This document shows positions 405 to 31,130 of a DNA stretch of 48,162 nt, piece by piece. Within the stretch, counting starts at the first letter, position 1. Each line of letters opens with the position of its first letter. The DNA is from an uncultured Nitrososphaerota archaeon (GTDB lineage: Archaea; Thermoproteota; Methanomethylicia; Methanomethylicales; Methanomethylicaceae): positions 1-48,162 of the forward strand of contig CAYZHK010000003.1 in NCBI GenBank assembly GCA_964477685.1. The letters run 5' to 3'. The notes below the pieces were generated by a model, which searched no databases, had not been told where the DNA came from, and saw only the letters and a program-made list of their open reading frames with translations. Made by a program: the position numbers and the translations under genes.

Positions 405-929
405 CTAGAGCTTCATTATGATGCTATAGTCGAAGACATGCTTGAATTCTGGCTTCTTGGAGACCACCTCAAGCGAGGAGGACTCTAGGTAGCCTCTAAG
501 GAAGAGAGACCATTTGCTCCCCAGGCTATGGCTGATCCTGATTGTGATGCCGCCATCATCCTCTTCGGTGTAGAACGACCCCCAGTTTGAAAAGCCTTCC
601 AGGAAGATGGACAGGAACTGGAGGTAGGTCTGGGTCGTCAGGTCGCCGAAGAGTTGCAGCACGATCTCTTTGGCAGTTGTTTTTCCCATCATGTAGGACA
701 GCTTTGTGATCGCCTTGTCGTCAACCGAATTTAAGAGATCCAGGAGATCTTTCTTGGGGAAACTGAGAATTTGGAACTGCTCAAGTTTCGTCCCGACGTT
801 TACGTATTTCCTTAGGATACGGCAGGTCAGGCCGTTGATAGTGGCCTCCTGCTTCTTTGCCTCCACCTCCAGGCCCTTCATCACGTCTGCGTTGATCCTG
901 AAGGTCCTCGGCAAACTTGATTCGGACAT
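405..929 (-). CDS. Putative transcription regulator: N-terminal ribbon-helix-helix plus V4R/H-NOX-like C-terminal domain
   Basis: N-terminus RTFRINADVMKGLEVEAKKQEATINGL fits the RHH strand-helix-helix pattern. The HSLGSKWSLFL motif resembles a TACK-archaeal family. Starts 11 bp after the hydrogenase small-subunit gene. Confidence 0.6.
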   Translation of the reverse strand: MSESSLPRTFRINADVMKGLEVEAKKQEATINGLTCRILRKYVNVGTKLEQFQILSFPKKDLLDLLNSVDDKAITKLSYMMGKTTAKEIVLQLFGDLTTQTYLQFLSIFLEGFSNWGSFYTEEDDGGITIRISHSLGSKWSLFLRGYLESSSLEVVSKKPEFKHVFDYSIIMKL

Positions 930-940
930 CCTTTACCACA

Positions 941-1408
941 TCATTTTGTTATGGTTTTTGTCGGCCTGTTGGATCCCTTCTCCGCCAGCTTCAGTATGCC
1001 CTGCACGATGCCGTTGATGATCTGCTCGGGCTTTGGCGCGCATCCGGGGACATAGACATCAACGGGGATCAGTAGGTCGGCGGAGCCGAGTATTGCATAG
1101 TTATCTGGGTCCTCCTCATAGAAGAGGCTTCCCCCGCAGGCGCACCCGCCGACGGCGACCACAACCTTCGGGTCCGGAACCTGCTCATAGACCCTCTTGA
1201 CCATGGGTATGAACTGCCTTGGGATGCAACCTGTCGTCACCAGAATATCGGCGTGCCTCGGGGAGGGCACGAGCAGGATGCCGAAGCGCTCGACATCAAA
1301 CCTAGGGGCCAGGGCAGCCAGCGTCTCGATGTCGCAGCCGTTGCAGCCGCCGCAGTGGAGGTGGTAGAGCCATGGCGAGTAGACCCTTGCCCTATCGATC
1401 AAGCCCAT
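941..1408 (-). CDS. Group 4 [NiFe]-hydrogenase small subunit (HycG/NuoB family)
   Basis: CGGCNGCDIE, SPRHADIL, VGGCACGG and VDVYVPGCAPKP motifs. Confidence 0.93.
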   Translation of the reverse strand: MGLIDRARVYSPWLYHLHCGGCNGCDIETLAALAPRFDVERFGILLVPSPRHADILVTTGCIPRQFIPMVKRVYEQVPDPKVVVAVGGCACGGSLFYEEDPDNYAILGSADLLIPVDVYVPGCAPKPEQIINGIVQGILKLAEKGSNRPTKTITK

Positions 1409-1996
1409 TCAGGTGGCCTCCAACCAGACGTGCTTCTTGGTGTGGGTGTCCAGCATAACGCCACGGGCCCTCCTGCAGTCGGGGCAGTACCCCTCCACCT
1501 TTTTATAGTCCGCAATAACAGTCTCCTTGACCCTCGGATTAATCTTTTCGCTCAGCCTTTCCAATACCCTCTTCTGCATCTTCTCGGGGAGATAAGAGGT
1601 CCCGCAGGACTTGCAGATGAGCATCTTTAGATCTGTGTTGGCATAGACCTTTGGGTCATTCCGGTCCGAGACTGCCAGCTCGAATCTGTTGGTCATCTTG
1701 ATGGCCTCCTCAGGGCAGCACTCCTGGCAGTGGGCACAGAACGTGCACCTGAAATGGAAGACCTGCACAGTCCTCTTCTCAGGGGTGTCAATGATCTTCG
1801 TGGCTCTCCCGGAGCAGACCATGTAGCATGCCCTGCAGCCGATGCATTTCTCTTCGTCCCTCTCAATGAAACCCCTGAGGCCCTCGGGTATCTGGCTGTA
1901 CTTCTTATTGGGGTCAACGCCCGAAGGGTATTTCAGCGTCATCGGGGTGCTGTATTTCGCCAGGACCTGTCTCAGTATCCTTATGTGGGTGGACAT
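1409..1996 (-). CDS. Hydrogenase iron-sulfur subunit (HycF/NuoI family)
   Basis: Two ferredoxin motifs (CIGCRACYMVC, CTFCAHCQECCP) plus the C-terminal CKSC...CPDC pair typical of HycF. Confidence 0.9.
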   Translation of the reverse strand: MSTHIRILRQVLAKYSTPMTLKYPSGVDPNKKYSQIPEGLRGFIERDEEKCIGCRACYMVCSGRATKIIDTPEKRTVQVFHFRCTFCAHCQECCPEEAIKMTNRFELAVSDRNDPKVYANTDLKMLICKSCGTSYLPEKMQKRVLERLSEKINPRVKETVIADYKKVEGYCPDCRRARGVMLDTHTKKHVWLEAT

Positions 1997-1997
1997 A

Positions 1998-2972
1998 TCA
2001 TGACACCATCCTCAGTACTATCGCAACAACAAAGCTCAGGATAGCCAGGGGGATGACGATTTTTATGTACCACCTGAGTGCCTTGTCGATCCTATACCTG
2101 GGGTTCAGCACCTGCACAACGGTCAGCAGGAATATGATAACTATCGCCGCTAAAAGATAGACCGGTACCATCAGCCATGAGGAGGAGATGGGGGGGAGGA
2201 AGACCGCGATGAAGAGGCTCACCACGCTGTAGAGCATGAAGACCTTCGCCAAGAAGTACACGCCCAGAAGCCTCCCGGAATATTCGGTGTACGGGCCGGC
2301 CACGATCTCGCACTCTGCCTCGGGCATGTCAAAGGGCTTTATGTGTAGCTTTCCCAGCATCGCTGCGAACATTGTCGTGCCACCAACAAGGGCAAGCAGG
2401 ATGGTGGGCAGACCCGGCATGGTGCTTGCCAGAGTGAAGAGGACCAGTGAGTTCTCTGCGAACGCGACTGCGAATAGGCTTATCACAAAACCGAGCTCGG
2501 CCACGAGAAAAAGCTCAGCCTCCCTCCTGGAGCCTATGGCCGCCCAAGGCGAACCGCTGGCAACCGGGCCAAGGATTGTGAAGACTATCGACGCGATCAG
2601 GAGGTATGACGCAATGATGAGGCTGAAGGGCACCTCGGAGAGAAGAGGCATTCCGGGGAATGGGATGAAGAAGACGGAAACCACAGCGAAGAAGAGGGAC
2701 AGATAGGGGGAGTAGACGAAGAGGCTCTTGCGGGAATTGGCGGGAACCACAACATCTTTCCCGAAAAGTTTCAGTATGTCGTAGAGGGGCTGCCAGATCC
2801 TCGTGCCACCGATGACCGGCGCAAGGTCACGGTACATTGTGACAACCGGACCCACTCTCCACTGGAACTTCGCACTGAGCTTCCTTATGAGGAAGGAATA
2901 GATTACTCCTAAGAAGAGGCTGATGGGCACGATTAGCACAACCGATATCAGGGTAAAGAGCAGATCTGCCAT
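1998..2972 (-). CDS. Hydrogenase membrane subunit (HycD/NuoH family)
   Basis: RKLSAKFQWRVGP, WQPLYDILKLFGK, PFDMPEAECEIVAGPYTEYSG, NPRYRID. Start placed at the ATG (2972) that overlaps the upstream TAA rather than at 3020. Confidence 0.92.
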   Translation of the reverse strand: MADLLFTLISVVLIVPISLFLGVIYSFLIRKLSAKFQWRVGPVVTMYRDLAPVIGGTRIWQPLYDILKLFGKDVVVPANSRKSLFVYSPYLSLFFAVVSVFFIPFPGMPLLSEVPFSLIIASYLLIASIVFTILGPVASGSPWAAIGSRREAELFLVAELGFVISLFAVAFAENSLVLFTLASTMPGLPTILLALVGGTTMFAAMLGKLHIKPFDMPEAECEIVAGPYTEYSGRLLGVYFLAKVFMLYSVVSLFIAVFLPPISSSWLMVPVYLLAAIVIIFLLTVVQVLNPRYRIDKALRWYIKIVIPLAILSFVVAIVLRMVS

Positions 2973-4681
2973 TATCCGATCACCTTCTTTCTCCTGCCAA
3001 GAGCCACCAGCTCGTCCCACATCATGGTGCGGACCGAACCCTTTCTCTCATCAATAATCTCATACCTGTCGGTGCAGGCGAGGCACTGGTCAATGCTGCC
3101 CATCACCACCGGGACGTCTGCAAGGTTCGCCCCCATGAGCATCCGCGGCACCACGGCGTTGTTCCTGTAGCTAGGGGTCCTTATGCGGTAGGCATGGGGC
3201 AGGTTCTGGTTGTACTCGCTAGCCCTCACGTAATGGAGGAGTTCGCCCCTGGGGGCCTCGTTGATGCCTGCTCCTTCGGCATTGACCGGGATGGTTTTTG
3301 GCTCTATGCGGATCTCGCCCGTCGTCTTTGCGAGGTGCTCCAAACACTGTTCGATGATGTCGGACGAGACAAGCAGCTCCTTCACCCGGACCAGCGTGCG
3401 GCCATAGGTGTCACAGTGGTCGTCGGTTATCACCTCCCAGCTTATCGCCTTGGGATCATAGATCGCGTGGGGAGGGTTGTCTGCTCTCACGTCTATCTTC
3501 CAGTTGCTCGCGCGGGCCACTGGGCCCACGACGCCGCCATCAAAGGACTCGGCGTAGGAGAGGGGACCGACCCCCAGAAGCCTGTGCTTGACGACAGAGT
3601 GGGCAGCCACCTGGAGAAGGAGCTCGGCCATGCCTTCCTTGAGGCCCTTTATCATGGGGATTGATTTCTCTGCCAGCTCCTTTGAGACGTCCCTGCTGAC
3701 ACCGCCCAGCCTCCATATGCCATAGTTGACCCTGTTCCCTGTAATGGACTCAATCAAGTCCATCACGCGCTCTCTGAGCCCCCAAGTGAGGTGGAAGCAT
3801 GTTTTCCATCCGATTACGTCGGCCACTACCCCGACCCAGAGGAGGTGGCTGTGGACCCTGTTGAGCTCATTGAGGAGAGTTCTGATGTAGAGGGCCCTGT
3901 CGGGCACCTCGGCATCGTACAGATTCTCGCATGCCGTGACGTATGCCACGCCGTGGGCGGCGCTGCAGATGCCGCAGACCCTCTCGGCCGCGAAGACCCC
4001 CTTGTTGTAGCCCCTTCTCTCGATGAGCTTCATTATCCCCCTGTGGTGGAAGCCGGTCTTGATGTCGGCCGAGGTGACGGTTTCGCCCTCCACCTTGACG
4101 TAGACGGTCTGGCCCTCGATGACTCCAGGGTGGTAGGGGCCAATGGGGATGAGGGTGGCATATGATTCCTGGGGGGTTATGCCGAGCGGGATCCACATCT
4201 CCTTGGCACCTGGCTCGGTCTTCTCGGGCCGTGGGGGCGCTGTCCCGCTCTCTGCGGCGTTGGGCCACTCATAGGGAAGGAACTGCATCCTCGGGTCTGG
4301 CGTATGGACCGCATTTATGCCAAGGAGGTCGTGCATCTCCCTTTCGGCCCAGCTTGCGGACCAGGTTATGTTGGCTATGGAGGGGATGCTGGGGTCGTCC
4401 TTGGAGACCCGGGCCTCCAGCATCACCACAAGTCGTTCCTTGAGGCGGGTGAAGTCGTACAGATAAATGATGTCGAAACCCTCTCCCTCCAGGTCGACCG
4501 CGGTCTCATGGATCAGCCGCGCCTTGAATTCGTTTATGAACCTGTCGGCCAGCTTCTCGGCATCCAGCAAATTTATCCTGACGGCAATCCTGTTCTCTTG
4601 GAGCCCCTTGTACTCAATTCCTTCGGGGACAAGCTCCTTCCTGACATAATCTACCAGGCCGGCGTCACCAGTGTATTTCAT
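2972..4681 (-). CDS. Group 4 [NiFe]-hydrogenase large subunit, fused NuoC+NuoD type (HycE family)
   Basis: NuoC-like WAEREMHDLLG; GPYHP; HRGIMK; L1 ERVCGICSAAH; EAPRGE; RIRTPS; L2 DQCLACTDR followed by a ~30-aa C-terminal extension. All four Ni-ligand Cys are present. Confidence 0.93.
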   Translation of the reverse strand: MKYTGDAGLVDYVRKELVPEGIEYKGLQENRIAVRINLLDAEKLADRFINEFKARLIHETAVDLEGEGFDIIYLYDFTRLKERLVVMLEARVSKDDPSIPSIANITWSASWAEREMHDLLGINAVHTPDPRMQFLPYEWPNAAESGTAPPRPEKTEPGAKEMWIPLGITPQESYATLIPIGPYHPGVIEGQTVYVKVEGETVTSADIKTGFHHRGIMKLIERRGYNKGVFAAERVCGICSAAHGVAYVTACENLYDAEVPDRALYIRTLLNELNRVHSHLLWVGVVADVIGWKTCFHLTWGLRERVMDLIESITGNRVNYGIWRLGGVSRDVSKELAEKSIPMIKGLKEGMAELLLQVAAHSVVKHRLLGVGPLSYAESFDGGVVGPVARASNWKIDVRADNPPHAIYDPKAISWEVITDDHCDTYGRTLVRVKELLVSSDIIEQCLEHLAKTTGEIRIEPKTIPVNAEGAGINEAPRGELLHYVRASEYNQNLPHAYRIRTPSYRNNAVVPRMLMGANLADVPVVMGSIDQCLACTDRYEIIDERKGSVRTMMWDELVALGRRKKVIG

Positions 4682-4682
4682 T

Positions 4683-5606
4683 TCACTTCCCCTCCCTCAG
4701 CCTCATGATTTTTTCAATGAACGCGTCCACTGGTATTGGCCTGCAGGTCCTCATGCCGAAGTCCTCTGGCTTGTAGCCAAACGCCAGCGCCAAGAGCTCC
4801 GAGAAGTGAATCACCGGCGTTGGGAACGCAATGCCCTTCTCGTCCCTGTAGATCTTTATGGCCCTCTCGAACTGATCGTAGCAGCCCGAGCAGATCAGGG
4901 CATATCCATCAACATTCAAATCCTTGGCGATCTCCATCTTCTTCCCGATCCGCTCGAATATGGAGGAATTGGCGTCCGCGAAGTAGAGGAGGAGCCCGCA
5001 GCAGGTCTTGTCGTAGGGGGTGTCGACAAGCTCCACGCCTGTGGCCTTCAGTATCTCCTCAAAGTAGTTCAGGAGGGTGTCGTCCCCCCGCCGCCTGATG
5101 TGGCAGCCCACATGCCTCATGATCCTAATGCCCTTTAGGGGGTAAATGACGTTGGCCTTGATCTTCTTTATTCCCACATCCTCGTAGAGGACCTCCACAT
5201 AGTGCTTCAGCTGGGCGGTCCCTCTGAGGGGATCCATTCCAACCTTCTTGAGGTGGGCATTGACCATATCCACTTTCTGGGGGTCTTCATGCAGCTCATT
5301 TAGGGCCTCCCAGTGCGAGACATAGCAGCCGTTGCAGGTGTCGACCATGACGATCCCCTGCTTCTCGGCGTTTGCCAAGTTCTGGCTGGTGATGCTGAGC
5401 CACCAATCCGTTTTCATTGCCTTCCACGGCCCAGGCCTCACGCAGCAGAGGGTCTCCTTCATGTAGCCAAAGTCAAGACCCAGATGCTTCGAGACGAGCA
5501 TTGTGGCCTTCTCTGCCCATGGCATCTTAACGGGCATCACACACCCCAAGAAATAACCGTACCTTGTGCGCGAATCTGGCTTGTTTTTACCTTCAATAGT
5601 GGTCAT
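4683..5606 (-). CDS. hdrB: Heterodisulfide reductase subunit B-like protein (two CCG domains)
   Basis: YFLGC...CCV...CNGC and HVGCH...CCG...CSGCYDQF, plus PVIHFSELLALAFG. Confidence 0.88.
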   Translation of the reverse strand: MTTIEGKNKPDSRTRYGYFLGCVMPVKMPWAEKATMLVSKHLGLDFGYMKETLCCVRPGPWKAMKTDWWLSITSQNLANAEKQGIVMVDTCNGCYVSHWEALNELHEDPQKVDMVNAHLKKVGMDPLRGTAQLKHYVEVLYEDVGIKKIKANVIYPLKGIRIMRHVGCHIRRRGDDTLLNYFEEILKATGVELVDTPYDKTCCGLLLYFADANSSIFERIGKKMEIAKDLNVDGYALICSGCYDQFERAIKIYRDEKGIAFPTPVIHFSELLALAFGYKPEDFGMRTCRPIPVDAFIEKIMRLREGK

Positions 5607-5621
5607 CGATCATTCCCTCCA

Positions 5622-5975
5622 TCAGTATTGGAATGTCCCTTTCTTCTTGTCGAAGGACATCTTCTCGAAGACCCCCGCGTCCTCCAGGATCTCCCGCTTC
5701 TTCTCGACTGCACCCTTGTAGGATCGCCCGGTGGGAGGCAGCCGTTCCAGCCCGCAGAGGGCGCGGTCGTTCTCCGCTTCGTCGCCCACATAATAGACGA
5801 GACCCTGCTCGAAATCCCGCTTGAGAGACGCCTTGGCTATGTCTGGAGCAACGGGCTTGAATGTGCGGCGCAGCGGGTAAAATTTATTCTCCTCAGCCTG
5901 GGTGTGGGTCGTTACTTTCTTTCCGGCCTCAAGGAGCCTTGACCATGCCTTGGGGGGTTCGTCCTTGGACATCAT
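5622..5975 (-). CDS. Small protein resembling the C-terminal part of HdrC, without the ferredoxin domain
   Basis: GLVYYVGDEAENDRALCGLERLPPTGRSYKGAVEKKREILEDAG matches, from memory, the methanogen HdrC tail pattern G..V...DE....R..LGL...PPT..KY..A.EE. Only one Cys. Lies directly upstream of hdrB. Confidence 0.6.
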   Translation of the reverse strand: MMSKDEPPKAWSRLLEAGKKVTTHTQAEENKFYPLRRTFKPVAPDIAKASLKRDFEQGLVYYVGDEAENDRALCGLERLPPTGRSYKGAVEKKREILEDAGVFEKMSFDKKKGTFQY

Positions 5976-6502
5976 TTCACGCCTCTCAATTTCTTTACAA
6001 GCTCAAATGCTTCCTTCCTTGGCAGAAGCTGCAGTGCCCCGCTGGAGCACATTTCGTAGCACATCGGATGATCTCCGTCGCAAAAGTCGCACTTCACGTA
6101 GATTTTCCTTTCAGCGTCCAGCCGCGGAACCCCTATGGGACAGGCCTGGTTGCATGTCCCGCAGCCGACGCAGAGAAGCGGGGATATACGCACAATCCCC
6201 AGCTCATCCTTGTAAATGGCGTCCTTGGGACATGAGGCGAGGCACATGGGATAAACACAATGCTGGCAGTTCGCGTTGATGTAGAGGCCCTTCTGGTCTG
6301 GCGCTTCGTTGACGTACAGGAGACCGAACTGCTTGTCGAAGGTCTTGTAGTGCTTGTAGGCGCAGCCGATCATGCACTGGCCGCAGCCGGTGCACTTGCT
6401 GGGGTCATGGACGATGACCATTTCGGTCACCTTTTCTTCGGTGCCTGGCACTGGCAAGGGCTTTACCAGGCGTTTTTGGAGCCTCTCCACTGTTGTCATC
6501 AT
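5972..6502 (-). CDS. 4x[4Fe-4S] electron-transfer subunit (HycB/CooF/DmsB family)
   Basis: Four Cys groups: CTGCGQCMIGC, CQHCVYPMCLASC, CVGCGTCNQAC, CDFCDGDHPMCYEMC. Confidence 0.88.
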   Translation of the reverse strand: MMTTVERLQKRLVKPLPVPGTEEKVTEMVIVHDPSKCTGCGQCMIGCAYKHYKTFDKQFGLLYVNEAPDQKGLYINANCQHCVYPMCLASCPKDAIYKDELGIVRISPLLCVGCGTCNQACPIGVPRLDAERKIYVKCDFCDGDHPMCYEMCSSGALQLLPRKEAFELVKKLRGVK

Positions 6503-8052
6503 AGACCACCTGTAAGGTACGGATACACGATCGTTACTGCAGCCCTCTGGAACCAGTCCTCTATCTGAAGGTACAGATCATGGAAGATGATGTTGTTTGC
6601 GCCCAGGGTGATTACCAAGCCGAGGGTGATTATGCAGATGGCGATGACGATGCCCGGCATCCGGAGGAGGGGCAGGCTCCGGTGGTGCACGTCAATGTCC
6701 GTGACACTGACCTTGGGCCTATTCGAAACAAAGCACCAGAGTGAGAAGAGGGTGGTGAAGCCTATGAAGGCGGCTGCGCAGAAGACGAAGGCCGTGATCC
6801 ACAGAGGCATGTTGGACGACGTGAACTCCTGGAGGGTCGTGTAACCCAGGGTCCCCGGTATGAGCGAGAGGGACAGGCCCCCTATCAGGTAGGTTAGGCC
6901 GTTGGGCCCGATTCTGCTTCCTAGCCCCCTCAGAAACGACAGGTTTGCGACGTGGCTCGACTCGATGACAAAGCCAGAGTCGAAGAAGAGGAGGGCTTTG
7001 GCCAGCCCGTGGTTCAGGAAGTGAAGGAGTATGCCCATGAAAAAGATGTACCAGAGGGTCGGCTCCAGTATGGCGAGGCCGATAAGTATGTAGAAGACAC
7101 CAACCTCGGATGAGGTTGAGAATGCCCAGATCCTCTTGATGCCCCTGATGTTGATCTGGCCCACATGGAACCTCGACCATCTACTGCCGGCTGTCGCTTC
7201 GACTGCCGCCAGCGCGGCTCCCACGACGACGGAGGCCACGCCCATGCCGAGCACGACCCAGGCAAGGGTGTCGCTGATGGGGGCGATGGCGCCGATCACC
7301 CTTGCAACGGCAAAGGCAGCGATCTGCACCATCACCCCGCTCAGTATCGCGCTGAGAGGAGTAGGAGCTTCGCTGTGGGCCGCCGGCAGCCAGAGAAGGC
7401 CAAACGGGAAGATGCCCACCTTTATGCTGAAGCCGATGGCATAGACCGCGGCGAGGAGGACCATGTCGGACGAAGCGACTGTGTAGTAGGAGTAGTGGAG
7501 TATGTAGGATCCGGTCAGCCAGTTCTGGTAAAGTATGCCCGCGAGGATGATCACCGCGCCAATGACAGACATTATGAAGAACCTTACGGCAGCCTTCGTG
7601 GCGCTCTGCCGCCGGGTGAAGAGGATCAGTATGCCGCCCGCGATGGTGCTAGCCTCGAAACCGATGTAGATGATCAGCATGTTGAAGGACGTGGCCATGA
7701 CAATCAGGGACGAGAGGAAAAGGGCGTAGAGCGCATAGAAGGCACCGAGGTGAGATTTGTCCTCGAAATACTGGTAGCTGTAGATTGCCCCAAGGAAGCC
7801 CAGGACTAGGGTCAGCTCGACAACAAAGGCGGACGACGAGTTGATCAGAATGCCAGACGTGTTGGGGTAGTAGAGGGCACCCTCCCCTACATTGGCCAGG
7901 ATCCAAGTGTTTACCGCAATGGCAATGGCGAAGAAGGCCGAAAGAGTGGCAAGCATGCCCTTTCCTCTGTTTGAGACGACGGGAGCTAGGATGCCACCCA
8001 GAACCATCGCGATGGGTGTCATTATGGCAAGTACAGAATTGTCGAGCATCAT
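6499..8052 (-). CDS. Antiporter-like membrane subunit (HycC/MrpD/NuoLMN family)
   Basis: About 14 hydrophobic segments; IGFEAS, IKVGIFP..WLPAAHSEAPTPLSAILSG, IKRIWAFS, NHGLAKALLF. Confidence 0.88.
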   Translation of the reverse strand: MMLDNSVLAIMTPIAMVLGGILAPVVSNRGKGMLATLSAFFAIAIAVNTWILANVGEGALYYPNTSGILINSSSAFVVELTLVLGFLGAIYSYQYFEDKSHLGAFYALYALFLSSLIVMATSFNMLIIYIGFEASTIAGGILILFTRRQSATKAAVRFFIMSVIGAVIILAGILYQNWLTGSYILHYSYYTVASSDMVLLAAVYAIGFSIKVGIFPFGLLWLPAAHSEAPTPLSAILSGVMVQIAAFAVARVIGAIAPISDTLAWVVLGMGVASVVVGAALAAVEATAGSRWSRFHVGQINIRGIKRIWAFSTSSEVGVFYILIGLAILEPTLWYIFFMGILLHFLNHGLAKALLFFDSGFVIESSHVANLSFLRGLGSRIGPNGLTYLIGGLSLSLIPGTLGYTTLQEFTSSNMPLWITAFVFCAAAFIGFTTLFSLWCFVSNRPKVSVTDIDVHHRSLPLLRMPGIVIAICIITLGLVITLGANNIIFHDLYLQIEDWFQRAAVTIVYPYLTGGL

Positions 8053-8426
8053 TCTTCCACCTTCACAGCCTTTTTGTCGTAATAGTGATCCCAGCTGTAG
8101 TCGTAGGCCACGTCCAGGAGCGGAACATTGGGTCGGTAGACCTGGTCATCGGACATGTAGGGCTCTTTGGCCAGCCCGGAGTAAAAAACCGACTCGGCCT
8201 TGACCTTGTCGGGGAAGAATGCCGGGATTAAGCTCAGGATGAGTATGAAGAACATCGATACGGACGTCACTTCCACAAATGCGAAAATGAGAATAAAGTT
8301 GAAGTAGATGCTGGCCACCATCACTCCAACCAAGCCAACGATCATGGACGTGAAGGCGATGAGGAGGGCCAACCTCTCGGATGTTATTTTTTGTCTGGGG
8401 GCATTTTGGCTGCTCAATGAAAACAA
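8049..8426 (-). CDS. Small 2-TM membrane protein, first gene of the hydrogenase operon
   Basis: Two hydrophobic helices with an intramembrane Glu; stop overlaps the next ATG (ATGA). Start uncertain (TTG at 8426 or 8417). Confidence 0.7.
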   Translation of the reverse strand: MFSLSSQNAPRQKITSERLALLIAFTSMIVGLVGVMVASIYFNFILIFAFVEVTSVSMFFILILSLIPAFFPDKVKAESVFYSGLAKEPYMSDDQVYRPNVPLLDVAYDYSWDHYYDKKAVKVEE

Positions 8427-8465
8427 CCTGCAACATGCGCGATCTTGATAACACTCGGCGCATAG

Positions 8466-8531
8466 TGTATTTAAACCATTTGATTGTAATATTTAGATAC
8501 CTTTAGTATACAAAATATTACAATGTAATAT
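8466..8531 (-). promoter_or_regulatory. Hydrogenase-operon TATA box and upstream palindromic operator
   Basis: Minus-strand TTTAAATA at 8475-8468. Perfect 12-bp inverted repeat ATTGTAATATTT (8483-8494) / AAATATTACAAT (8513-8524). Overlapping palindrome ATATTACA-A-TGTAATAT (8515-8531). Confidence 0.6.
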
Positions 8532-8638
8532 AAAAACCGGTAATTCGCCAATTATTTTTCTGACTCTCAATAATAATACTACCAATATATTAAGCTATCA
8601 GAAAGACAGTTAGTAGGTGTGAAGAAGGAGGTCGTCTG

Positions 8639-9991
8639 ATGGCCGTCTGCCCTATTGATTCAGGAAGGTATGGAAGCAAGGAGATGAAGTCACTCTTCAG
8701 CGAGGAGAGCAGGCTTCAGAGGATGCTGGATGTGGAGGTTGCCCTGGCTGAGACACTGGCAGAGCTGGGAGAAATACCGAGGGCTGCCCCGCAGAAGATC
8801 AAGAGGAAAGCGCTGGTTTCCATCGTCACTCCCGAGAGGGTCAAGGAGAGGGAGCTGAAGACGAGGCATGACTTGATGGCCATGGTTGAGGTGCTGGCGG
8901 AGGAGTCGGGGGACTATGGCAAGTATGTTCACTGGGGGGCGACAAGCTACGACATCGTTGACACAGCCTGGACGCTGATGATGAGGGACGGGCTGGCAAT
9001 TCTTGAGAGCAGGCTTGAGGAGCTGACGGAGTCCCTCTGCCTTGCGGCGGAGAAGCACAAGGGGACAATCATGGCCGGGAGGACGCATGGCCAACACGCA
9101 ACGCCGATCACGTGGGGATTCAAGACCGCTGTATTTGCGGCGGAAACCGCAAGGAACCTGGAGAGGCTCAGGGCGCTGAGGGGTCGGCTCCTGGTGGGCA
9201 AGATGAGCGGCGCCACCGGGACAATGGCAAGCCAGGGGCCGAAGGCCCTGGAGATAGAGCGCCTTGTGATGCAAAGGCTGAAGCTGTCCCCGGCAGAGAT
9301 ATCGACCCAGGTCATCTGTAGGGACCGCATCGCCGAATTTGTCGCTTGGGCAGCCATCACCGCCTCCGGGCTGGACAGGATCGCAACGGAGATAAGGAAC
9401 CTCCAGCGGACCGAAATCCACGAGGTAGCCGAGGGCTTCGAGACTGGGTCGCAGGTCGGGAGCAGCACCATGCCCCACAAGCAGAATCCAATCGACTGCG
9501 AGAAGGTCTCAGGGCTGGCCAAGGTCCTCCGTGGAATGGTGATCACTGCGCTTGAGAACATACCGCTCTGGCATGAGAGGGATCTGACAGATTCCAGCAG
9601 CGAAAGGTTCCTGGTACCGATGACCTTCATAATCCTGGACGAGATGCTGGTCACGACTGCGCGTGTAATGAAGAACCTCAGGGTTTTCCCAGAACAGATG
9701 AGGAGAAACCTCGGTATAACAGGCGGAGCCATCCTCACCGAAGCAGTGATGATGGCGCTTGCGCGGAAGGGAATGGGAAGGCAGAAGGCCCATGAGCTGA
9801 TGAGGGGCATGGCCGCCAAGGCTGCCAAGGAAGGGAAGCCTGTAAGGGAGATACTGCTGGAATCCCGCGAGATCAGCGGCTATCTCTCCAAAGGCGAGAT
9901 AGACTCGCTGATGAAGCCGGAGAACTACCTAGGGAAGAGCCCGGAGATCATTGCAAGGGCTGTGAAGCACGCCCGGGAGTCCATAGCCTGA
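8639..9991 (+). CDS. purB: Adenylosuccinate lyase
   Basis: HWGATSYDIVD, GRTHGQHATP and the fumarate-lyase signature GSSTMPHKQNP..E; GGAGGT RBS. Confidence 0.95.
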   Translation: MAVCPIDSGRYGSKEMKSLFSEESRLQRMLDVEVALAETLAELGEIPRAAPQKIKRKALVSIVTPERVKERELKTRHDLMAMVEVLAEESGDYGKYVHWGATSYDIVDTAWTLMMRDGLAILESRLEELTESLCLAAEKHKGTIMAGRTHGQHATPITWGFKTAVFAAETARNLERLRALRGRLLVGKMSGATGTMASQGPKALEIERLVMQRLKLSPAEISTQVICRDRIAEFVAWAAITASGLDRIATEIRNLQRTEIHEVAEGFETGSQVGSSTMPHKQNPIDCEKVSGLAKVLRGMVITALENIPLWHERDLTDSSSERFLVPMTFIILDEMLVTTARVMKNLRVFPEQMRRNLGITGGAILTEAVMMALARKGMGRQKAHELMRGMAAKAAKEGKPVREILLESREISGYLSKGEIDSLMKPENYLGKSPEIIARAVKHARESIA

Positions 9992-10054
9992 CCTCCCTCG
10001 GGGCGCCAGGGAGAGAAGGATCCTTCAACCTTCCTGCATGGAGAGTGGTGGGCT

Positions 10055-11242
10055 GTGGCTGAAAAGAAGGCGCTAGGTGGCATATCCGCCAACATCCTGA
10101 TCCTCGGAGTGGTCAGCTTCTTCACAGACATCAGCAGCGAGCTTATCCTGGCCATCCTCCCATCTTTCCTTGTGATCACACTGGGCGCAACTCCCCTTAT
10201 TGTGGGGACCATAGAGGGGGCTGCCGAGTCCATCACATCCTTCCTGAGGCTCTTTTCTGGCGCCATCGCCGACAAGACAGGCCACAGAAAGGGGCTTACG
10301 GTGCTCGGCTACGGGATCTCGAATTCCGTCAAGCCTCTTCTCGGCTTCGCCTTCAACTGGGAGAGTGTACTTGTATTGAGGATGTCTGACCGCGCGGGCA
10401 AGGGGATAAGGACTCCACCGAGGGACGCCATTATCGCCGACTCAAGCCATGAGGTCAATATGGGGAGGTCCTTTGGCATCCACAGAACCCTGGACCAGCT
10501 GGGGGCAATAGTCGGGCCTGTTCTTGCCTTCCTGCTCCTTGCCCCCCTAGGCTACAACAGCCTATTCCTCCTTACAATTATACCAGGCGCGGTCGCTGTA
10601 ATAATCCTGGTTGGGTTTGTTAAGGATCCGCCGCGGAAGGGAGAAACGACAAAGTACTCCTTTAGTAATGCCAAGAAACTTCTTGACAGGAGGTTCAGCC
10701 TCTACCTCTCCTCCGCGACGCTCTACTCGATATCCGCCTTCACCTATGCGCTCATACTGCTTAGGGCCCTCCAGCTTGGGCTGCCGGCGGTCTCCACCCC
10801 CCTTGTCTATGCGGCCATGCAGGTATGCCATACGGCGATGGGCTATCCGGCTGGCTTCATCTCTGACAGGTACGGAAGGGCCCGGGGCGTCCAGATCGGC
10901 TATTTTGTCCTCTTCGTCTCATTCGTCTTCATGGCACTGTCGCTGGACATTTGGACGCTTCTGATCGGCGCACTCCTCTTCGGCGCACACCAAGGCATAG
11001 TCGAGACGAACCAGAGGGCTATGATACCCAGCCTTGTCCCCGAGAACATGAAGGGGACGGCCTACGGCATATACAATACTGTCATTGGCATCACCAATTT
11101 TCCCACCAACCTCGTGGCCGCCTATCTCTTCACCATCAGCTATTCATTCGCGTTTAGCTATGGTGCCATCTTCGCGCTCATGGCATCCATCCTCATGGTA
11201 TTCACCCAGAGGTCGATGGCTGGAAATAGGTCTGTGCCCTGA
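10055..11242 (+). CDS. MFS transporter
   Basis: About 12 TM segments; SGAIADKTGHRK, DRAGKGIRTPPRDA, GRSFGIHRTLD, AGFISDRYGR motifs. Confidence 0.9.
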   Translation: MAEKKALGGISANILILGVVSFFTDISSELILAILPSFLVITLGATPLIVGTIEGAAESITSFLRLFSGAIADKTGHRKGLTVLGYGISNSVKPLLGFAFNWESVLVLRMSDRAGKGIRTPPRDAIIADSSHEVNMGRSFGIHRTLDQLGAIVGPVLAFLLLAPLGYNSLFLLTIIPGAVAVIILVGFVKDPPRKGETTKYSFSNAKKLLDRRFSLYLSSATLYSISAFTYALILLRALQLGLPAVSTPLVYAAMQVCHTAMGYPAGFISDRYGRARGVQIGYFVLFVSFVFMALSLDIWTLLIGALLFGAHQGIVETNQRAMIPSLVPENMKGTAYGIYNTVIGITNFPTNLVAAYLFTISYSFAFSYGAIFALMASILMVFTQRSMAGNRSVP

Positions 11243-11246
11243 GTGT

Positions 11247-12431
11247 TCAGGCCTTTCCTCTCTTCAAGAGGTAGTATGCAAAGAAGGAGGAGAAGAAGGC
11301 GTTCAGGGGCGGAATTCCCAGTGGAACTAGCCCGACACAGGCCCCCATCCCCCAAGAGACCACTCCAGTCCAGGTCGTTCCTTTTTTGGCCTCAAGGCGC
11401 CGCTTCGAGATGAAGTAGTATTCGGCTAGGCTCATGCCCATCAGCGGAGGGAGGAGTATGCCGATTACCCTGAGGAAATAGCTGAGCTGGTCCACGATCC
11501 CGATGGATGCAAGCGCAAGACCCGCCACAGCTGCGGGAACTGTGGCGTATCGCCGCTCCACCCTGAGCAGGTTCGCCAAGGCCAGGGATGGGGGATAGAG
11601 CGAGGATGCGGCCGCATAGCTCCCCAGCAGCAGGAGGAGATTGGCCAAGAGGGGGAGTCCTATTGCTACCAGGCTCAGCACCGGGTTGGGCAGGGAGGTG
11701 AAGGATCCGATGATATTCCCTGAGAATAATGTAAACAGCATGAGGGGGAGGACAATGCCAAATGCGGTGACCTTAACATCCCTCAGGCTCTTGGCCTGCA
11801 TCATGAAGTCGGGAGAGACCGTGGATATTGATGTTGCCCCGCCAATGGCAAGCCCTGCCGCCATCAGGACGTACTCAGGGCTCGAGGGCGTGGGCATGAA
11901 CGACGGGCATTCCATGGTGATGGAGTAGAGGGCCCAAATAGCGAAGACAGCGGTGAGGATAGCCGTAAGCTTGGTGAAATCTGACAGGCGGCTAAAGCCA
12001 GAGTAGGTGACTGTGGCTATCAGGGCCCCAAACATGATGATTGCGATCAGGCTGTTTATGCCGGTGAGTTCAGCGGCGGCCTGACCCCCAAGGCTTATCA
12101 GCACGGCAAACCACCCAACCTGAGTCATTGTTATTAGCGGGGAGGCCAGGAAACGGGATCCCTGCTCGCCGAGGGTGGCCTCCATGATTTTTGTAAAGGG
12201 CTTGTGCTCCAATGCCCCAATGCCACCGTGGAAATAGATGAAAAGGGAGATACAGATCCCTGCCGCCACCGACGTGAGGAGGGCATAGGGCAATGGGAGC
12301 ATCGTCCCCAGTGTGCATCCCACCGCCAGTATGGCTGGGCTCACAAAGATGATGCAGAGCGTTGGCGCTACCCTGCTCCATGGGAAGAGGCGAGGCTGTG
12401 TCTCCATTCCGCCACCATGCTGCCGAATCAT
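11247..12431 (-). CDS. Cytosine/purine permease (NCS1, CodB-like)
   Basis: Multi-TM protein with LGEQGS..S..ITMTQVGWF, SPDF, FL..IG.LLPP..G..LAEYY patterns. Confidence 0.7.
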   Translation of the reverse strand: MIRQHGGGMETQPRLFPWSRVAPTLCIIFVSPAILAVGCTLGTMLPLPYALLTSVAAGICISLFIYFHGGIGALEHKPFTKIMEATLGEQGSRFLASPLITMTQVGWFAVLISLGGQAAAELTGINSLIAIIMFGALIATVTYSGFSRLSDFTKLTAILTAVFAIWALYSITMECPSFMPTPSSPEYVLMAAGLAIGGATSISTVSPDFMMQAKSLRDVKVTAFGIVLPLMLFTLFSGNIIGSFTSLPNPVLSLVAIGLPLLANLLLLLGSYAAASSLYPPSLALANLLRVERRYATVPAAVAGLALASIGIVDQLSYFLRVIGILLPPLMGMSLAEYYFISKRRLEAKKGTTWTGVVSWGMGACVGLVPLGIPPLNAFFSSFFAYYLLKRGKA

Positions 12432-13477
12432 TCTAGGATCTTATCGGCTATAGCCTTGAACTCCTTGTTTTCATAGCTCTCGATCTGCCCTGTGTCGGCG
12501 ACCTCCGAAAGGCGCGGATCCAGGGGCAGAGATCCGAGGTATTTGGCATTGATCTTCTCTGCGAAGATCCTGGCCTTCGATTCGCCGAATGGGTGAATGA
12601 TATTGCCGCACTTGTCGCATTTGACATAGCTCATGTTCTCAATGACCCCCATCACAGGAACAGTCATCATCTGGGTCATGTTGACTGCCTTGGAAACGAT
12701 CATGTTGGCCAATTCCTGCGGGGACGTGACTACGACGGCGCCATCCACCGGAAGAAGCTGCATCACGGTCAGCTGGGCATCGCTGGTCCCAGGAGGTAGG
12801 TCAATAATCAGGTAATCAAGGGTGCCCCAGTCCACATCTGCATAAAACTGCCGTATGGCGCTGCTGACAAGGGGACCTCGCCAGATGATTGGAGCCTCCT
12901 CCTTTCCCACGAGCAGGTTCATGGATATGACCTTGACCCCTCCCTTGGAAATGCCGGGTATAATCTTGCCCTCCATGACGAAGGGGGAGACAATCTCACC
13001 GAACATCTTAGGGATGCTTGGGCCAGTGATGTCGGCATCCATGACTCCGACCTTCTTGCCGCGGCGCGATGCCTCAACGGCTAGGAGGGAGGCGACGGAG
13101 GACTTGCCCACCCCGCCCTTGCCCGAGAGTACCACTATTATCTTGGCTATGCCTTTCCGAGGGAGCTTGCCTGGCAGCTGGCTTGGGCCACCCCTCGCCT
13201 TCAGCTTTTCGACGAGGCGCTCCCTCTCCTCATCATTCATAACTCCCAGGATCACCTCGGCGTCCCCAACGCCTGTAATTTCCTTGATTGCCTTTTCGGC
13301 GTCCGACTTTATACCCTTGGACATCGGGCAGGAGTCGGTGGTCAGGGCAATCGCAACCTTTACATGGCCTCCGCTGATCTCTACATTCCTGACCATATCC
13401 ATCTCAACGATGTTCATGTCGAACTCTGGGTCCATAACCCCGCTGAGCGCTTTTATGATCTCTTCCTTTGTGACCAT
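12428..13477 (-). CDS. mrp: Mrp/NBP35 Fe-S carrier ATPase with N-terminal DUF59 domain
   Basis: VMDPEFDMNIVEMDMV..TTDSCP (DUF59); SGKGGVGKS; DADITGPSIP; WRGP; DLPPGTSD; ENMS..CDKC. Confidence 0.92.
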   Translation of the reverse strand: MVTKEEIIKALSGVMDPEFDMNIVEMDMVRNVEISGGHVKVAIALTTDSCPMSKGIKSDAEKAIKEITGVGDAEVILGVMNDEERERLVEKLKARGGPSQLPGKLPRKGIAKIIVVLSGKGGVGKSSVASLLAVEASRRGKKVGVMDADITGPSIPKMFGEIVSPFVMEGKIIPGISKGGVKVISMNLLVGKEEAPIIWRGPLVSSAIRQFYADVDWGTLDYLIIDLPPGTSDAQLTVMQLLPVDGAVVVTSPQELANMIVSKAVNMTQMMTVPVMGVIENMSYVKCDKCGNIIHPFGESKARIFAEKINAKYLGSLPLDPRLSEVADTGQIESYENKEFKAIADKILE

Positions 13478-31128: not shown

Positions 31129-31130
31129 TT

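What the first reader, a model, noticed from the sequence alone, without database searches (positions are those of the whole stretch)
405..8426. FHL-type membrane hydrogenase wired to HdrB: candidate self-contained H2:heterodisulfide oxidoreductase with an unusual subunit set
Seen: ten co-oriented, mostly abutting or overlapping genes in the order 2-TM protein, one antiporter-like subunit, HycB-like ferredoxin, HdrC-tail protein, HdrB, HycE-like large subunit (all four Ni Cys present), HycD, HycF, HycG, RHH regulator. Established: Hyc-type complexes normally receive electrons from a formate or CO dehydrogenase through HycB/CooF, and HdrB normally works with HdrA/C. A hydrogenase-HdrBC cluster ('Ehd') has been proposed for Methanomethylicia. 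Inference: here HdrB takes the place of the dehydrogenase, with no HdrA, no cluster-bearing HdrC and a single HdrB copy. The complex could couple H2 oxidation directly to disulfide reduction at the membrane, or run in reverse. It may be a new variant or a paralogue of Ehd.
Basis: partly seen in the sequence, partly recalled or inferred. Interest (0 to 1): 0.85.

Follow-up and report, generated by a model that had tools for sequence, protein, structure and literature searches.

The report
Ehd hydrogenase–HdrB cluster, already described
This is the membrane hydrogenase gene cluster with a built-in heterodisulfide reductase subunit ("Ehd") that has already been proposed for this group of methane-making archaea, so it is real and interesting but not new.

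Summary
Ten co-oriented minus-strand genes (405-8426) encode a 2-TM protein, one antiporter-like subunit, a four-cluster HycB-type ferredoxin, a 117-aa protein that is only the C-terminal tail of HdrC, HdrB with both CCG motifs, a fused NuoC/D-type [NiFe] large subunit with both Ni-binding CxxC pairs, NuoH-, NuoI- and NuoB-like subunits, and a 174-aa protein whose RHH nature is weakly supported. The genome has McrA and belongs to the Methanomethylicia. The same ten genes in the same order stand in five relatives, among them both cultured Methanosuratincola species. The literature already names this hydrogenase–HdrBC–antiporter cluster "Ehd" and proposes H2-driven heterodisulfide reduction with ion export. 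Activity, substrate and pumping direction remain untested.

The parts
8499..8531 (-). Conserved promoter element: 8-bp inverted repeat ATATTACA-T-TGTAATAT followed by TGTATACTAAAGG, just upstream of an A/T-rich TATA-like stretch; candidate operator
   Evidence: Sequence read. A block TGTAAT-N4-5-TGTAYACWWWAGG stands upstream of the first gene in L002, L003, L004, L006 and L007. The pattern TGTRYACWWWARG occurs once in the 1.50-Mb own genome, here, with 0 control matches. Function is inferred.
8049..8426 (-). 2-TM membrane subunit (125 aa; start codon uncertain) with an invariant Glu52 in helix 2 and a conserved F-x-x-G-x-x-K-x-P-Y segment after it
   Evidence: ORF; no Pfam/NCBIfam family. A tblastn relative stands in 22 of the 28 related loci; 19 of them were aligned with it in A5, including loci that lack the antiporter gene. 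PDB profile hits are only weak: ND2 TM4-5 (E 0.043) and ND4L (E 0.22).
6499..8052 (-). Single antiporter-like (NuoL/M/N, MbhH, HycC type) membrane subunit, 517 aa
   Evidence: PF00361 8.6e-26; best solved match MbhH 6cfw_H, E 4.1e-20. Glu133 (TM5), Lys211 (TM7) and Lys352 (TM11) are kept in 20 of 20 relatives. The position of the TM8 Lys is Gln243, and the TM12 Lys is removed by a 3-residue gap, with Glu409 two residues on.
5972..6502 (-). HycB-type ferredoxin, 176 aa, 16 Cys in four CxxCxxCxxxC-like motifs, which implies four [4Fe-4S] clusters
   Evidence: Fer4_11 1.5e-17. All 16 Cys are invariant in 24 sequences (A3). The profile hits four-cluster electron-transfer subunits (8c0z_C 1.7e-35, 9mqx_E, 6x6u_B, HycB 7z0s_B 2.3e-22), and no HdrC at E <= 1e-8. 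It is predicted to dock on HdrB.
5622..5975 (-). 117-aa protein equal to the C-terminal, HdrB-embracing tail of HdrC, without any Fe-S motif
   Evidence: One Cys. Profile hits fall on the C-terminal residues of five distinct solved HdrC chains. No longer fused form was found. Only 17 representative clusters reach E <= 1e-3, mostly 83-143 aa. It always lies directly before hdrB.
4683..5606 (-). HdrB, 307 aa, with two complete CCG motifs (C22, C54, C55, C91, C94; C168, C202, C203, C239, C242)
   Evidence: CCG x2; TIGR03288 1.9e-55. Full-length matches to solved HdrB: 9sfi_C 1.6e-46, 5odc_B 1.5e-44. All ten Cys are invariant in 25 sequences (A2).
2972..4681 (-). [NiFe] group-4 large subunit fused to a NuoC-like domain (HycE type), 569 aa, with a 30-residue C-terminal extension after the second Ni motif
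   Evidence: Pfam PF00329 + PF00374 + PF00346. Best solved matches: MBH MbhL 6cfw_L (4.2e-75) and FHL HycE 7z0s_E (1.4e-71). Ni motifs stand at residues 234-243 and 531-539.
1998..3020 (-). NuoH/HycD-like membrane subunit
   Evidence: PF00146 5.2e-55; NuoH models.
1409..1996 (-). HycF/NuoI-like subunit with two [4Fe-4S] motifs and an extra C-terminal CxxC...CxxC
   Evidence: NF009053 1.1e-26 and NF006076 2.7e-26; Cys positions.
941..1408 (-). HycG/NuoB-like small subunit
   Evidence: PF01058 1.8e-29; NuoB models.
405..929 (-). 174-aa conserved protein, possibly an RHH-type regulator; 11 nt after the small-subunit gene
   Evidence: No family at E <= 0.01; HicB E 0.048 on residues 9-35. Orthologues stand after the cluster in 5 of the 10 closest loci, one of them split between two frames. 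The four intact ones were aligned with it in A6.

Best explanation
The region is the Ehd operon of a Methanomethylicia methanogen. The nine structural genes most likely build one membrane complex. Its core is an FHL/MBH-type group-4 [NiFe] hydrogenase (large subunit, NuoB-like, NuoI-like and NuoH-like subunits, one antiporter-like subunit, a small 2-TM subunit). Its peripheral arm is lengthened by a four-cluster HycB-type ferredoxin and ends in HdrB instead of a formate or CO dehydrogenase. HdrB is held by a 117-aa protein that is the tail of HdrC. The proposed path is H2 at the NiFe site, then the proximal cluster, the two clusters of the HycF-like subunit, the four clusters of the ferredoxin, the non-cubane clusters of HdrB, and finally the disulfide. 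In this Mcr-bearing organism the disulfide is most likely CoM-S-S-CoB. Shown here: gene content, motifs, orthology, conserved linkage. Model only: the ferredoxin-HdrB interface. Inferred: the direction (H2 oxidation), the substrate, and any ion translocation. Outward pumping, as the literature proposes, is the least secure step.
For: Family and motif assignments of all catalytic subunits. McrA is in the same genome. No HdrA (only ferredoxin-domain and GxGxxG-like partial matches), no MvhD and no HdrC above cut-off were found in the 92%-complete assembly; MvhD was found in 0 of 32 genomes of the family. So the usual soluble Mvh-HdrABC route is not seen. The identical ten-gene order stands in 5 relatives, among them both cultured Methanosuratincola species. 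In 18 further loci from other families of the phylum, hdrB again lies beside group-4 hydrogenase genes although the gene order is reshuffled, which argues for a physical complex. The ferredoxin gene is there in 17 of the 18. The tail gene is seen before hdrB in all 18: by tblastn in 8, as an ORF in the ferredoxin-hdrB gap in 8, and by the profile hit alone in L088 and L091. Complex prediction with HdrB + 117-aa protein + ferredoxin as partner gave a score of 0.84 against a best control of 0.00. That mark was reached by 58 of 80 solved complexes and 2 of 110 mismatched pairs. The runs agree in at least 86% of contacts, and the partner's pLDDT is at least 86. The contacts put the ferredoxin's first and fourth Cys motifs (residues 36-57 and 147-155) against HdrB 167-172 and 197-222, the C-terminal CCG cluster. 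The published proposal is the same (passages in PMC9723716; 10.1101/2022.08.18.504445; PMC12700198). Thermodynamics (recalled, from no call): E0' of H+/H2 is about -414 mV and of CoM-S-S-CoB about -140 mV, so about -50 kJ/mol is available.
Against: There are no biochemical data, and I saw no expression data. The cluster is not tied to Mcr in either direction. Eight McrA-positive genomes of the family have no match to the 117-aa marker at E <= 1e-20, among them 5 of 5 of one genus at 76-92% completeness. Nine of 10 carriers of the module outside the family have no McrA at 93-99% completeness. [quoted passage not shown] The own genome has four HdrD-like proteins, one beside GlcD and an Fpo-like operon, which are alternative heterodisulfide reductases. 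Pumping: in MBH- and Ech-type enzymes H2 oxidation at this site goes with ion uptake (recalled knowledge). Outward pumping during H2 oxidation would therefore need reversed coupling. The antiporter-like subunit lacks the TM8 and TM12 lysines. Four related loci have no antiporter-like gene at all (L009, L074-L076). The docking pass may come from likeness to solved HdrB-HdrC structures, and my own shallow alignments (23-25 rows) were used. HdrB scores below NCBIfam's equivalog cut-off (188 vs 345 bits).
Confidence: 0.6

Rival explanations
1. Same complex and same direction (H2 oxidation), but HdrB reduces a disulfide other than CoM-S-S-CoB, such as a protein-bound, lipoyl-type or other low-molecular-weight disulfide or a sulfur compound. 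The link to methanogenesis is then indirect.
For: Nine of 10 carriers of the hydrogenase-ferredoxin-tail-HdrB module outside the family lack McrA at 93-99% completeness. Kohtz et al. 2022 argue the same for Culexarchaeia, which lack CoM/CoB synthesis (passage read). HdrB is below the equivalog cut-off for CoB-CoM HdrB. Eight Mcr-positive relatives do without the cluster.
Against: This organism has Mcr and so must recycle CoM-S-S-CoB. No HdrABC/Mvh was found. All ten CCG cysteines are kept, and the best solved matches are true heterodisulfide reductase B subunits over the full length.
Confidence: 0.2
2. The complex oxidises H2 and reduces the disulfide but conserves no energy, or even lets ions in. 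It would be a membrane-anchored, non-pumping H2:disulfide oxidoreductase (as proposed for Drh of Methanocellales), and energy is conserved elsewhere (Fpo-like/HdrD).
For: The TM8 Lys is replaced by Gln, and the TM12 Lys is deleted, in 11 of 20 antiporter-like subunits, the window's included. Relatives L009 and L074-L076 lack the antiporter-like gene in the locus. By homology with MBH/Ech, H2 oxidation is the ion-consuming direction (recalled). Drh without an antiporter subunit is read this way in PMC9723716.
Against: The TM5 Glu, TM7 Lys and TM11 Lys are kept in 20 of 20, and a Glu stands two residues after the lost TM12 Lys in the window's clade, as NuoM has a Glu at TM12 (that comparison is recalled). 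A conserved 2-TM subunit carries an invariant membrane Glu. About 50 kJ/mol would be wasted.
Confidence: 0.3
3. The physiological direction is H2 evolution: electrons enter at the ferredoxin or HdrB end and protons are reduced, as in FHL or MBH.
For: The nearest solved relatives (MBH, FHL) evolve H2 (their direction is recalled). A four-cluster HycB-type subunit is the usual electron entry module.
Against: Thiol oxidation (about -140 mV, recalled) cannot drive proton reduction without a large input of ion-motive force. Cultured relatives with the same cluster consume H2 (abstract of PMC12244365). No formate or CO dehydrogenase gene stands in or near the cluster.
Confidence: 0.07
4. HdrB, the tail protein and the ferredoxin form a soluble enzyme of their own and are merely co-transcribed with an ordinary energy-converting hydrogenase.
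For: No direct evidence of contact between the ferredoxin and the HycF-like subunit was obtained. Only the HdrB-ferredoxin side was modelled.
Against: The linkage survives repeated gene-order reshuffling in 18 loci of other families. The 25 HdrB-linked large subunits form one side of a branch (SH-aLRT 99), though the loci were picked through the linked genes, so that grouping is partly circular. A HycB-type subunit is the standard bridge onto HycF in FHL (7z0s; recalled).
Confidence: 0.07

Closest known systems
Ehd (energy-converting hydrogenase D) of Methanomethylicia/Verstraetearchaeota, proposed by Borrel et al. 2019 and re-drawn by Kohtz et al. 2022 (PMC9723716, Fig. 4B,F)
   Same: A membrane-bound group-4 [NiFe] hydrogenase with co-located hdrB, an 'HdrC' and one ion-antiporter subunit, in the same taxon. 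The window's cluster is orthologous (large subunit 58-70% identical, same order) to those of Methanosuratincola and other Methanomethylicia genomes.
   Different: Nothing that I could establish. What the literature calls HdrC is here resolved into a tail-only 117-aa protein plus a four-cluster HycB-type ferredoxin. I could not check whether the original paper or its supplements say so (supplements closed).
Ehe (Culexarchaeia), Ehd-like (Bathyarchaeia and others), Drh (Methanocellales), Ehg (Nezhaarchaeia): other HdrB-interacting group-4 hydrogenases (PMC9723716; PMC12700198)
   Same: HdrB wired to a group-4 hydrogenase. The 18 loci of other families found here (L074-L091) share the ferredoxin/tail/HdrB module and probably belong to these groups. 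The names cannot be matched to the coded genomes.
   Different: Other gene orders. Per the paper, extra modules (SdhA, CdhA, GcvH, FdhF, HdrA, MvhD). Some lack the antiporter subunit. Large subunits are at most 47% identical to the window's.
E. coli formate hydrogenlyase FHL-1 (HycBCDEFG + FdhF; PDB 7z0s)
   Same: A fused NuoC/D-type large subunit with a C-terminal extension, HycG, HycF, HycD, one antiporter-like subunit and a four-cluster HycB as electron bridge.
   Different: FdhF is replaced by HdrB plus the HdrC tail. There is an extra 2-TM subunit. The proposed direction is H2 uptake, not evolution.
HdrABC-MvhAGD of hydrogenotrophic methanogens (PDB 5odc, 8rvu, 7bkb)
   Same: HdrB with two non-cubane-cluster CCG motifs; the HdrC C-terminal tail.
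   Different: No HdrA (no flavin, so no electron bifurcation), no MvhD, and no two-cluster HdrC domain. The hydrogenase is a membrane-bound group-4 enzyme rather than a soluble group-3c enzyme.
Pyrococcus furiosus MBH (PDB 6cfw)
   Same: The best solved match of the large subunit and of the antiporter-like subunit.
   Different: MBH has a full Mrp-like module and takes electrons from free ferredoxin to make H2. Here there is a single antiporter-like subunit with altered TM8 and TM12 residues, and a built-in reductase.
VhtAGC / methanophenazine / HdrDE of Methanosarcina (functional analogue; recalled, from no call)
   Same: The overall reaction is H2 + CoM-S-S-CoB at the membrane.
   Different: Unrelated hydrogenase group, cytochrome b, a diffusible carrier, and HdrD instead of HdrB.

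Membership tests
Ehd (HdrB-linked group-4 hydrogenase of Methanomethylicia) | Group-4 [NiFe] large subunit with both Ni-binding CxxC motifs | tested here: met
   C236/C239 and C533/C536; Pfam and PDB matches.
Ehd (HdrB-linked group-4 hydrogenase of Methanomethylicia) | hdrB (and 'hdrC') co-located with the hydrogenase genes | tested here: met
   hdrB directly precedes the large-subunit gene (1-nt gap). The HdrC-tail gene and the ferredoxin gene lie before it.
Ehd (HdrB-linked group-4 hydrogenase of Methanomethylicia) | One ion-antiporter-like subunit in the cluster | tested here: met
   PF00361; MbhH match.
Ehd (HdrB-linked group-4 hydrogenase of Methanomethylicia) | Orthology with the clusters of Methanomethylicia genomes (large subunit in the Ehd clade) | tested here: met
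   Same order in 5 loci, among them LWZ-6 and LCB70. The window sits in an 11-row clade with them (SH-aLRT 98). No sequence labelled 'Ehd' by its authors was available, so the label is inferred from taxon and content.
Ehd (HdrB-linked group-4 hydrogenase of Methanomethylicia) | H2-dependent heterodisulfide reduction coupled to ion translocation | not testable with these tools
   Still a proposal in the papers read.
HdrB (CoB-CoM heterodisulfide reductase subunit B) | Two CCG motifs CX31-39CCX35-36CXXC (motif definition recalled) | tested here: met
   C22-31 residues-C54 C55-35 residues-C91xxC94, and C168-33 residues-C202 C203-35 residues-C239xxC242. All ten are invariant in 25 sequences.
HdrB (CoB-CoM heterodisulfide reductase subunit B) | Score above the NCBIfam equivalog cut-off (TIGR03288) | tested here: not met
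   188.2 bits against a cut-off of 345.15: a divergent HdrB.
HdrC | N-terminal ferredoxin domain with two CxxCxxCxxxC motifs | tested here: not met
   The 117-aa protein has a single Cys. Only the C-terminal tail of HdrC is matched. It is a fragment-like relative, not an HdrC.
Formate hydrogenlyase (Hyc/Hyf) | Formate dehydrogenase partner (FdhF) feeding HycB | tested here: not met
   No such gene in the cluster, nor among the 20 neighbouring ORFs scanned.
RHH (ribbon-helix-helix) regulators | Significant match to an RHH family, or an RHH fold | tested here: inconclusive
   HicB E 0.048, below threshold.

The most novel reading that the evidence does not exclude
Ehd could be a complex-I-type machine run with inverted logic. 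H2 would be oxidised at the membrane-coupling site, and the energy released on the way to a built-in, flavin-free HdrB would drive ions outward. That would need a coupling polarity opposite to MBH and Ech. The clade-specific loss of the TM8 and TM12 lysines in the antiporter-like subunit and the conserved 2-TM subunit with an invariant membrane glutamate would be the adaptations for it. In that case it would be a new mode of chemiosmotic coupling and the main energy-conserving site of methyl-reducing Methanomethylicia.
Probability: 0.2. Interest if true: 0.8.

Novelty: already known. Interest (0 to 1): 0.3.

Why it matters
How methanogens outside the Euryarchaeota conserve energy is unsettled. 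They lack Mvh-HdrABC, and Ehd is one of three published candidates for recycling CoM-S-S-CoB. The same ten-gene cluster stands in both cultured Methanosuratincola species, so the proposal can now be tested at the bench. This window adds no new kind of system. It confirms the architecture in one more genus and sharpens three points. First, 'HdrC' is split into a tail protein and a four-cluster ferredoxin. Second, the module is dispensable in some Mcr-bearing relatives and present in many Mcr-free archaea. Third, the pumping claim is the weakest link.

Tried and rejected
Literature. Borrel et al. 2019 (PMC6453112) and the two 2024 Nature papers on cultured Methanosuratincola are not held. So I could not compare gene by gene with the original Ehd figure, nor see whether expression of the cluster was reported. 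Supplements are closed. The IJSEM description of M. petrocarbonis has no word on hydrogenases or Hdr. Searches for 'Ehd' and related phrases found only three works that name the complex. A search for Methanosuratincola + hydrogenase + heterodisulfide found none.

Expression. No RNA holder was listed for the region: 7 DNA runs hold it, 0 RNA runs. I did not lay reads.

A longer, fused form of the 117-aa protein was searched for and none scored; the tool calls this weak evidence.

A complementary distribution of Ehd and Mvh was rejected: MvhD was found in 0 of 32 genomes of the family, whether or not they carry Ehd.

Co-occurrence of Ehd with Mcr was rejected in both directions.

2-TM subunit. 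There was no significant match to any solved chain (best E 0.043). The atlas neighbours scored at most 0.86, a lead only.

RHH. Only sub-threshold evidence.

The tree grouping 'HdrB-linked versus not' is partly circular, because most loci were picked through the linked genes. I use it only to place the window. One relative (L086) did not match my regular expression for the first Ni motif (20 of 21 matched; 21 of 21 matched the second), and I did not look further. Incomplete large subunits (L010, L077, L087, L090) were left out of that motif count.

The sigma-70 promoter scan was not used, because the organism is an archaeon.

Full report
WHAT IS THERE. On the minus strand of window 405-8426 lie ten ORFs with 4-nt overlaps or gaps of 0-15 nt. 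Pfam and NCBIfam assign eight of them.
- 6499-8052: an antiporter-like subunit (PF00361).
- 5972-6502: a Fer4_11 ferredoxin.
- 4683-5606: HdrB, with two CCG domains. It matches TIGR03288 at 1.9e-55 but scores 188 bits, below the 345-bit cut-off.
- 2972-4681: a single protein that carries the NuoC-like, NiFeSe_Hases and 49-kDa domains.
- 1998-3020: a NuoH-like protein.
- 1409-1996: a HycF/NuoI-like protein.
- 941-1408: a NuoB-like protein.
The large subunit has both Ni-binding pairs (C236/C239, C533/C536), followed by a 30-residue C-terminal extension. Its best solved relatives are MbhL of MBH (4.2e-75) and HycE of formate hydrogenlyase (1.4e-71). HdrB aligns over its full length with solved HdrB chains (1.6e-46 to 1e-38) and has the ten cysteines of two CCG motifs. 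The ferredoxin has 16 cysteines in four cluster motifs. As a profile it hits four-cluster electron-transfer subunits, HycB among them.

THE 117-AA PROTEIN. It has no family in Pfam or NCBIfam and one cysteine. A profile of it and ten orthologues (A1) hits HdrC of the Mvh-Hdr complex, and only residues 127-181 of 185 (E 1.1e-6). A wider profile of 23 sequences (A4) hits five distinct solved HdrC sequences, always in their last ~65 residues (E 4.3e-12 to 2.1e-6). No longer fused form was found. An exhaustive profile search of 1.84 billion representatives gave only 17 proteins at E <= 1e-3, mostly 83-143 aa. What passes for HdrC here is split into a tail-only protein and a four-cluster HycB-type ferredoxin.

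WHOSE GENOME. The assembly (1.50 Mb, 120 contigs, 92% complete) has McrA. The closest named large subunits are from Candidatus Methanomethylicus (78% and 70% identity) and Methanosuratincola (68-70%). There is a gap down to 47% or less for Bathyarchaeia, Odinarchaeia, Baldrarchaeota and others.

SYNTENY. A scan of GTDB species genomes with the large subunit returned 18 loci, and tblastn with the ten proteins gave the following.
- All ten genes in the same order in five loci: L002, L003, L004 (M. petrocarbonis LWZ-6), L006 (M. verstraetei LCB70) and L007.
- A truncated contig with the same order (L005).
- Nine genes, without the 174-aa gene, in L008 and L011.
- Eight genes in L009, which has no antiporter-like gene.
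- A short contig (L010) with the central four genes.
- Eight bacterial loci with hydrogenase genes only. One of them (L013) has a weak HdrB-like hit 9 kb away.
A tree of 31 large subunits puts the window in an 11-row clade with these Methanomethylicia sequences (SH-aLRT 98).

WHAT IS PUBLISHED. I read passages, not whole papers. Kohtz et al. [quoted passage not shown] It was suggested to couple H2 oxidation to CoM-S-S-CoB reduction and to ion export (their ref. 15, Borrel et al. 2019). They add Ehe (Culexarchaeia), Drh (Methanocellales), Ehg (Nezhaarchaeia) and an 'Ehd-like' clade. The Yellowstone preprint 10.1101/2022.08.18.504445 finds Ehd in four of six Methanomethylicia MAGs, one of them only in part, with hdrABC and mvhADG absent. 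PMC12700198 mentions an Ehd-like complex in another lineage. Borrel 2019 and the two 2024 Nature cultivation papers are not held. On this basis the window's cluster is an orthologue of Ehd, not a new variant or paralogue.

WIDER COMPARISON. The profile of the 117-aa protein was run on 401 genomes of the phylum: 53 matched at E <= 1e-3, and 23 of 31 in the window's family. The weakest matches lie in ORFs of 170-265 aa and may be ordinary HdrC tails. I fetched 18 loci from genomes outside the family.
- All 18 carry hdrB beside group-4 hydrogenase genes, in several different gene orders. Three of them (L085, L087, L091) are short contigs of 3-4 kb.
- The ferredoxin gene is seen in 17 of the 18. 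The exception is L091, whose contig starts just before hdrB.
- A tail-protein gene lies directly before hdrB in all 18. It was seen by tblastn in 8, as an ORF of 85-95 aa in the ferredoxin-hdrB gap in 8, and by the profile hit alone in L088 and L091.
- The 10 CCG cysteines are invariant in 25 HdrB sequences (A2), and the 16 ferredoxin cysteines in 24 sequences (A3).
A linkage that survives reshuffling argues for a physical complex.

DOCKING MODEL. Complex prediction on HdrB + tail protein + ferredoxin (the partner) gave 0.84 against a best control of 0.00. That mark was reached by 58 of 80 solved complexes and 2 of 110 mismatched pairs. The runs agree in at least 86% of contacts, and the partner's pLDDT is at least 86. 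The contacts put ferredoxin residues 36-57 and 147-155 (Cys motifs 1 and 4) against HdrB 167-172 and 197-222 (the C-terminal CCG motif). That is the geometry expected of an electron wire. The pass may owe something to solved HdrB-HdrC structures, and it used my own 23-25-row alignments. It supports binding and does not show it.

CONTEXT IN THE GENOME.
- No HdrA: only ferredoxin-domain and short dinucleotide-fold matches.
- No MvhD and no HdrC above cut-off.
- Six CCG-domain proteins: the window's HdrB, four HdrD-like proteins of 372-429 aa, and one of 241 aa.
- Three group-4-type large subunits, all with Ni motifs, and a group-3b-like four-gene hydrogenase.
- One HdrD-like gene sits next to a GlcD-like gene and 3.6 kb from an Fpo/Nuo-like operon. 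That is the other published route for heterodisulfide reduction.

DISTRIBUTION TESTS. In the 32 genomes of the family, the tail-protein marker is present in 23 (E <= 1e-20; a 24th has a truncated copy at a contig end), McrA in 31, and MvhD in 0. Eight McrA-positive genomes lack the marker, among them 5 of 5 of one genus (76-92% complete). Outside the family, 9 of 10 carriers tested lack McrA (93-99% complete). So the module is neither necessary for Mcr-based metabolism nor restricted to it. This weakens the specific assignment of CoM-S-S-CoB as the substrate for the family as a whole. It remains the most economical substrate in this Mcr-bearing, Mvh/HdrA-free organism.

ION TRANSLOCATION. Alignments with MbhH, MrpA and NdhD and across 20 relatives give the following.
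- The TM5 Glu (E133), TM7 Lys (K211) and TM11 Lys (K352) are conserved in 20 of 20.
- The TM8 Lys is Gln243 in 11 of 20 (the window's clade plus L078, L086, L089), Glu in 5 and Lys in 4.
- The TM12 Lys is removed by a 3-residue gap in the same 11, with a conserved Glu two residues on.
The helix labels and the canonical roles of these residues are recalled knowledge. The calls show only that the reference chains have Lys there. The 2-TM subunit is conserved even in loci without the antiporter gene. It has an invariant Glu in its second helix (A5) but no significant solved relative. By homology with MBH and Ech (recalled), H2 oxidation at this site is the ion-consuming direction, so outward pumping during H2 oxidation would need inverted coupling. 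I therefore rate 'oxidises H2 and reduces a disulfide' well above 'pumps ions out'.

SURROUNDINGS. The 212-nt region upstream of the first gene is A/T-rich. It holds an 8-bp inverted repeat followed by TGTATACTAAAGG (8499-8531). The block recurs upstream of the cluster in five relatives and is unique in the own genome, so it is a candidate operator. The 174-aa gene that follows the cluster is conserved in five relatives, but its RHH nature is not established. The 20 neighbouring ORFs scanned are unrelated housekeeping genes: adenylosuccinate lyase, an MFS transporter, an Mrp/NBP35-type Fe-S ATPase, an ECF component, a GHMP kinase, TldD/PmbA, an aminotransferase, two MoeA, GcvT, a Y-family polymerase, and a ferredoxin plus aldehyde:ferredoxin oxidoreductase.

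VERDICT. The cluster is an orthologue of that known, still untested, system. Novelty: already known.

Noticed in passing
window 8499-8531 (- strand): An inverted repeat ATATTACA-T-TGTAATAT followed by TGTATACTAAAGG stands just before a TATA-like stretch. The block is conserved upstream of the cluster in L002, L003, L004, L006 and L007, and the degenerate pattern is unique in the own genome. It is a candidate operator of the Ehd operon.
   Followed up: partly
window 6499-8052 (- strand), residues 243 and 407-409: The antiporter-like subunit has Gln where MbhH, MrpA and NdhD have the TM8 Lys. It also lacks the TM12 Lys through a 3-residue gap, with a Glu two residues on. The same holds in 11 of 20 relatives; the others have Glu or Lys at TM8 and keep the TM12 Lys.
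   Followed up: partly
window 8049-8426 (- strand): The 2-TM subunit has an invariant Glu52 in its second helix and a conserved F-x-x-G-x-x-K-x-P-Y segment. It is kept even in loci without the antiporter gene. Its only solved-chain hits are weak: ND2 (E 0.043) and ND4L (E 0.22).
   Followed up: partly
L093 (own genome C13:1-14000), 908-3635 and 5079-12032: GlcD-like and HdrD-like genes lie beside an Fpo/Nuo-like operon. Its NuoD/FpoD-like subunit (379 aa) still carries both Ni-binding CxxC motifs, so the 'Fpo-like complex' of this organism may be a [NiFe] hydrogenase.
   Followed up: partly
L092 (own genome C18:11000-17000), 2217-5955: A four-gene group-3b-like (sulfhydrogenase Hyd/Shy type) NAD(P)-linked [NiFe] hydrogenase. 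It is the only non-group-4 hydrogenase found in the assembly.
   Followed up: partly
L009 7738-13756; L074-L076: These related clusters have no antiporter-like gene in the locus. In L009 the 2-TM protein is longer (148 aa), with extra hydrophobic stretches.
   Followed up: no
L086 and L087 (genome G172, contigs C62 and C89): One Mcr-positive genome of the sister family carries two paralogous ferredoxin-tail-HdrB-hydrogenase clusters.
   Followed up: no
L004 13881-14389: In M. petrocarbonis LWZ-6 the orthologue of the 174-aa gene matches in two reading frames that meet at base 14030. This is a frameshift or a sequencing error.
   Followed up: no
window 1409-1996 (- strand), residues 128-174: The HycF-like subunit has an extra CxxC...CxxC (C128, C131, C171, C174) after its two [4Fe-4S] motifs. 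It could be a further metal site.
   Followed up: no
window 12428-13477 (- strand) and 30688-32993 (+ strand): An Mrp/NBP35 (NUBPL-type) Fe-S cluster carrier ATPase lies 4 kb from the cluster. A ferredoxin plus aldehyde:ferredoxin oxidoreductase pair lies further on.
   Followed up: no
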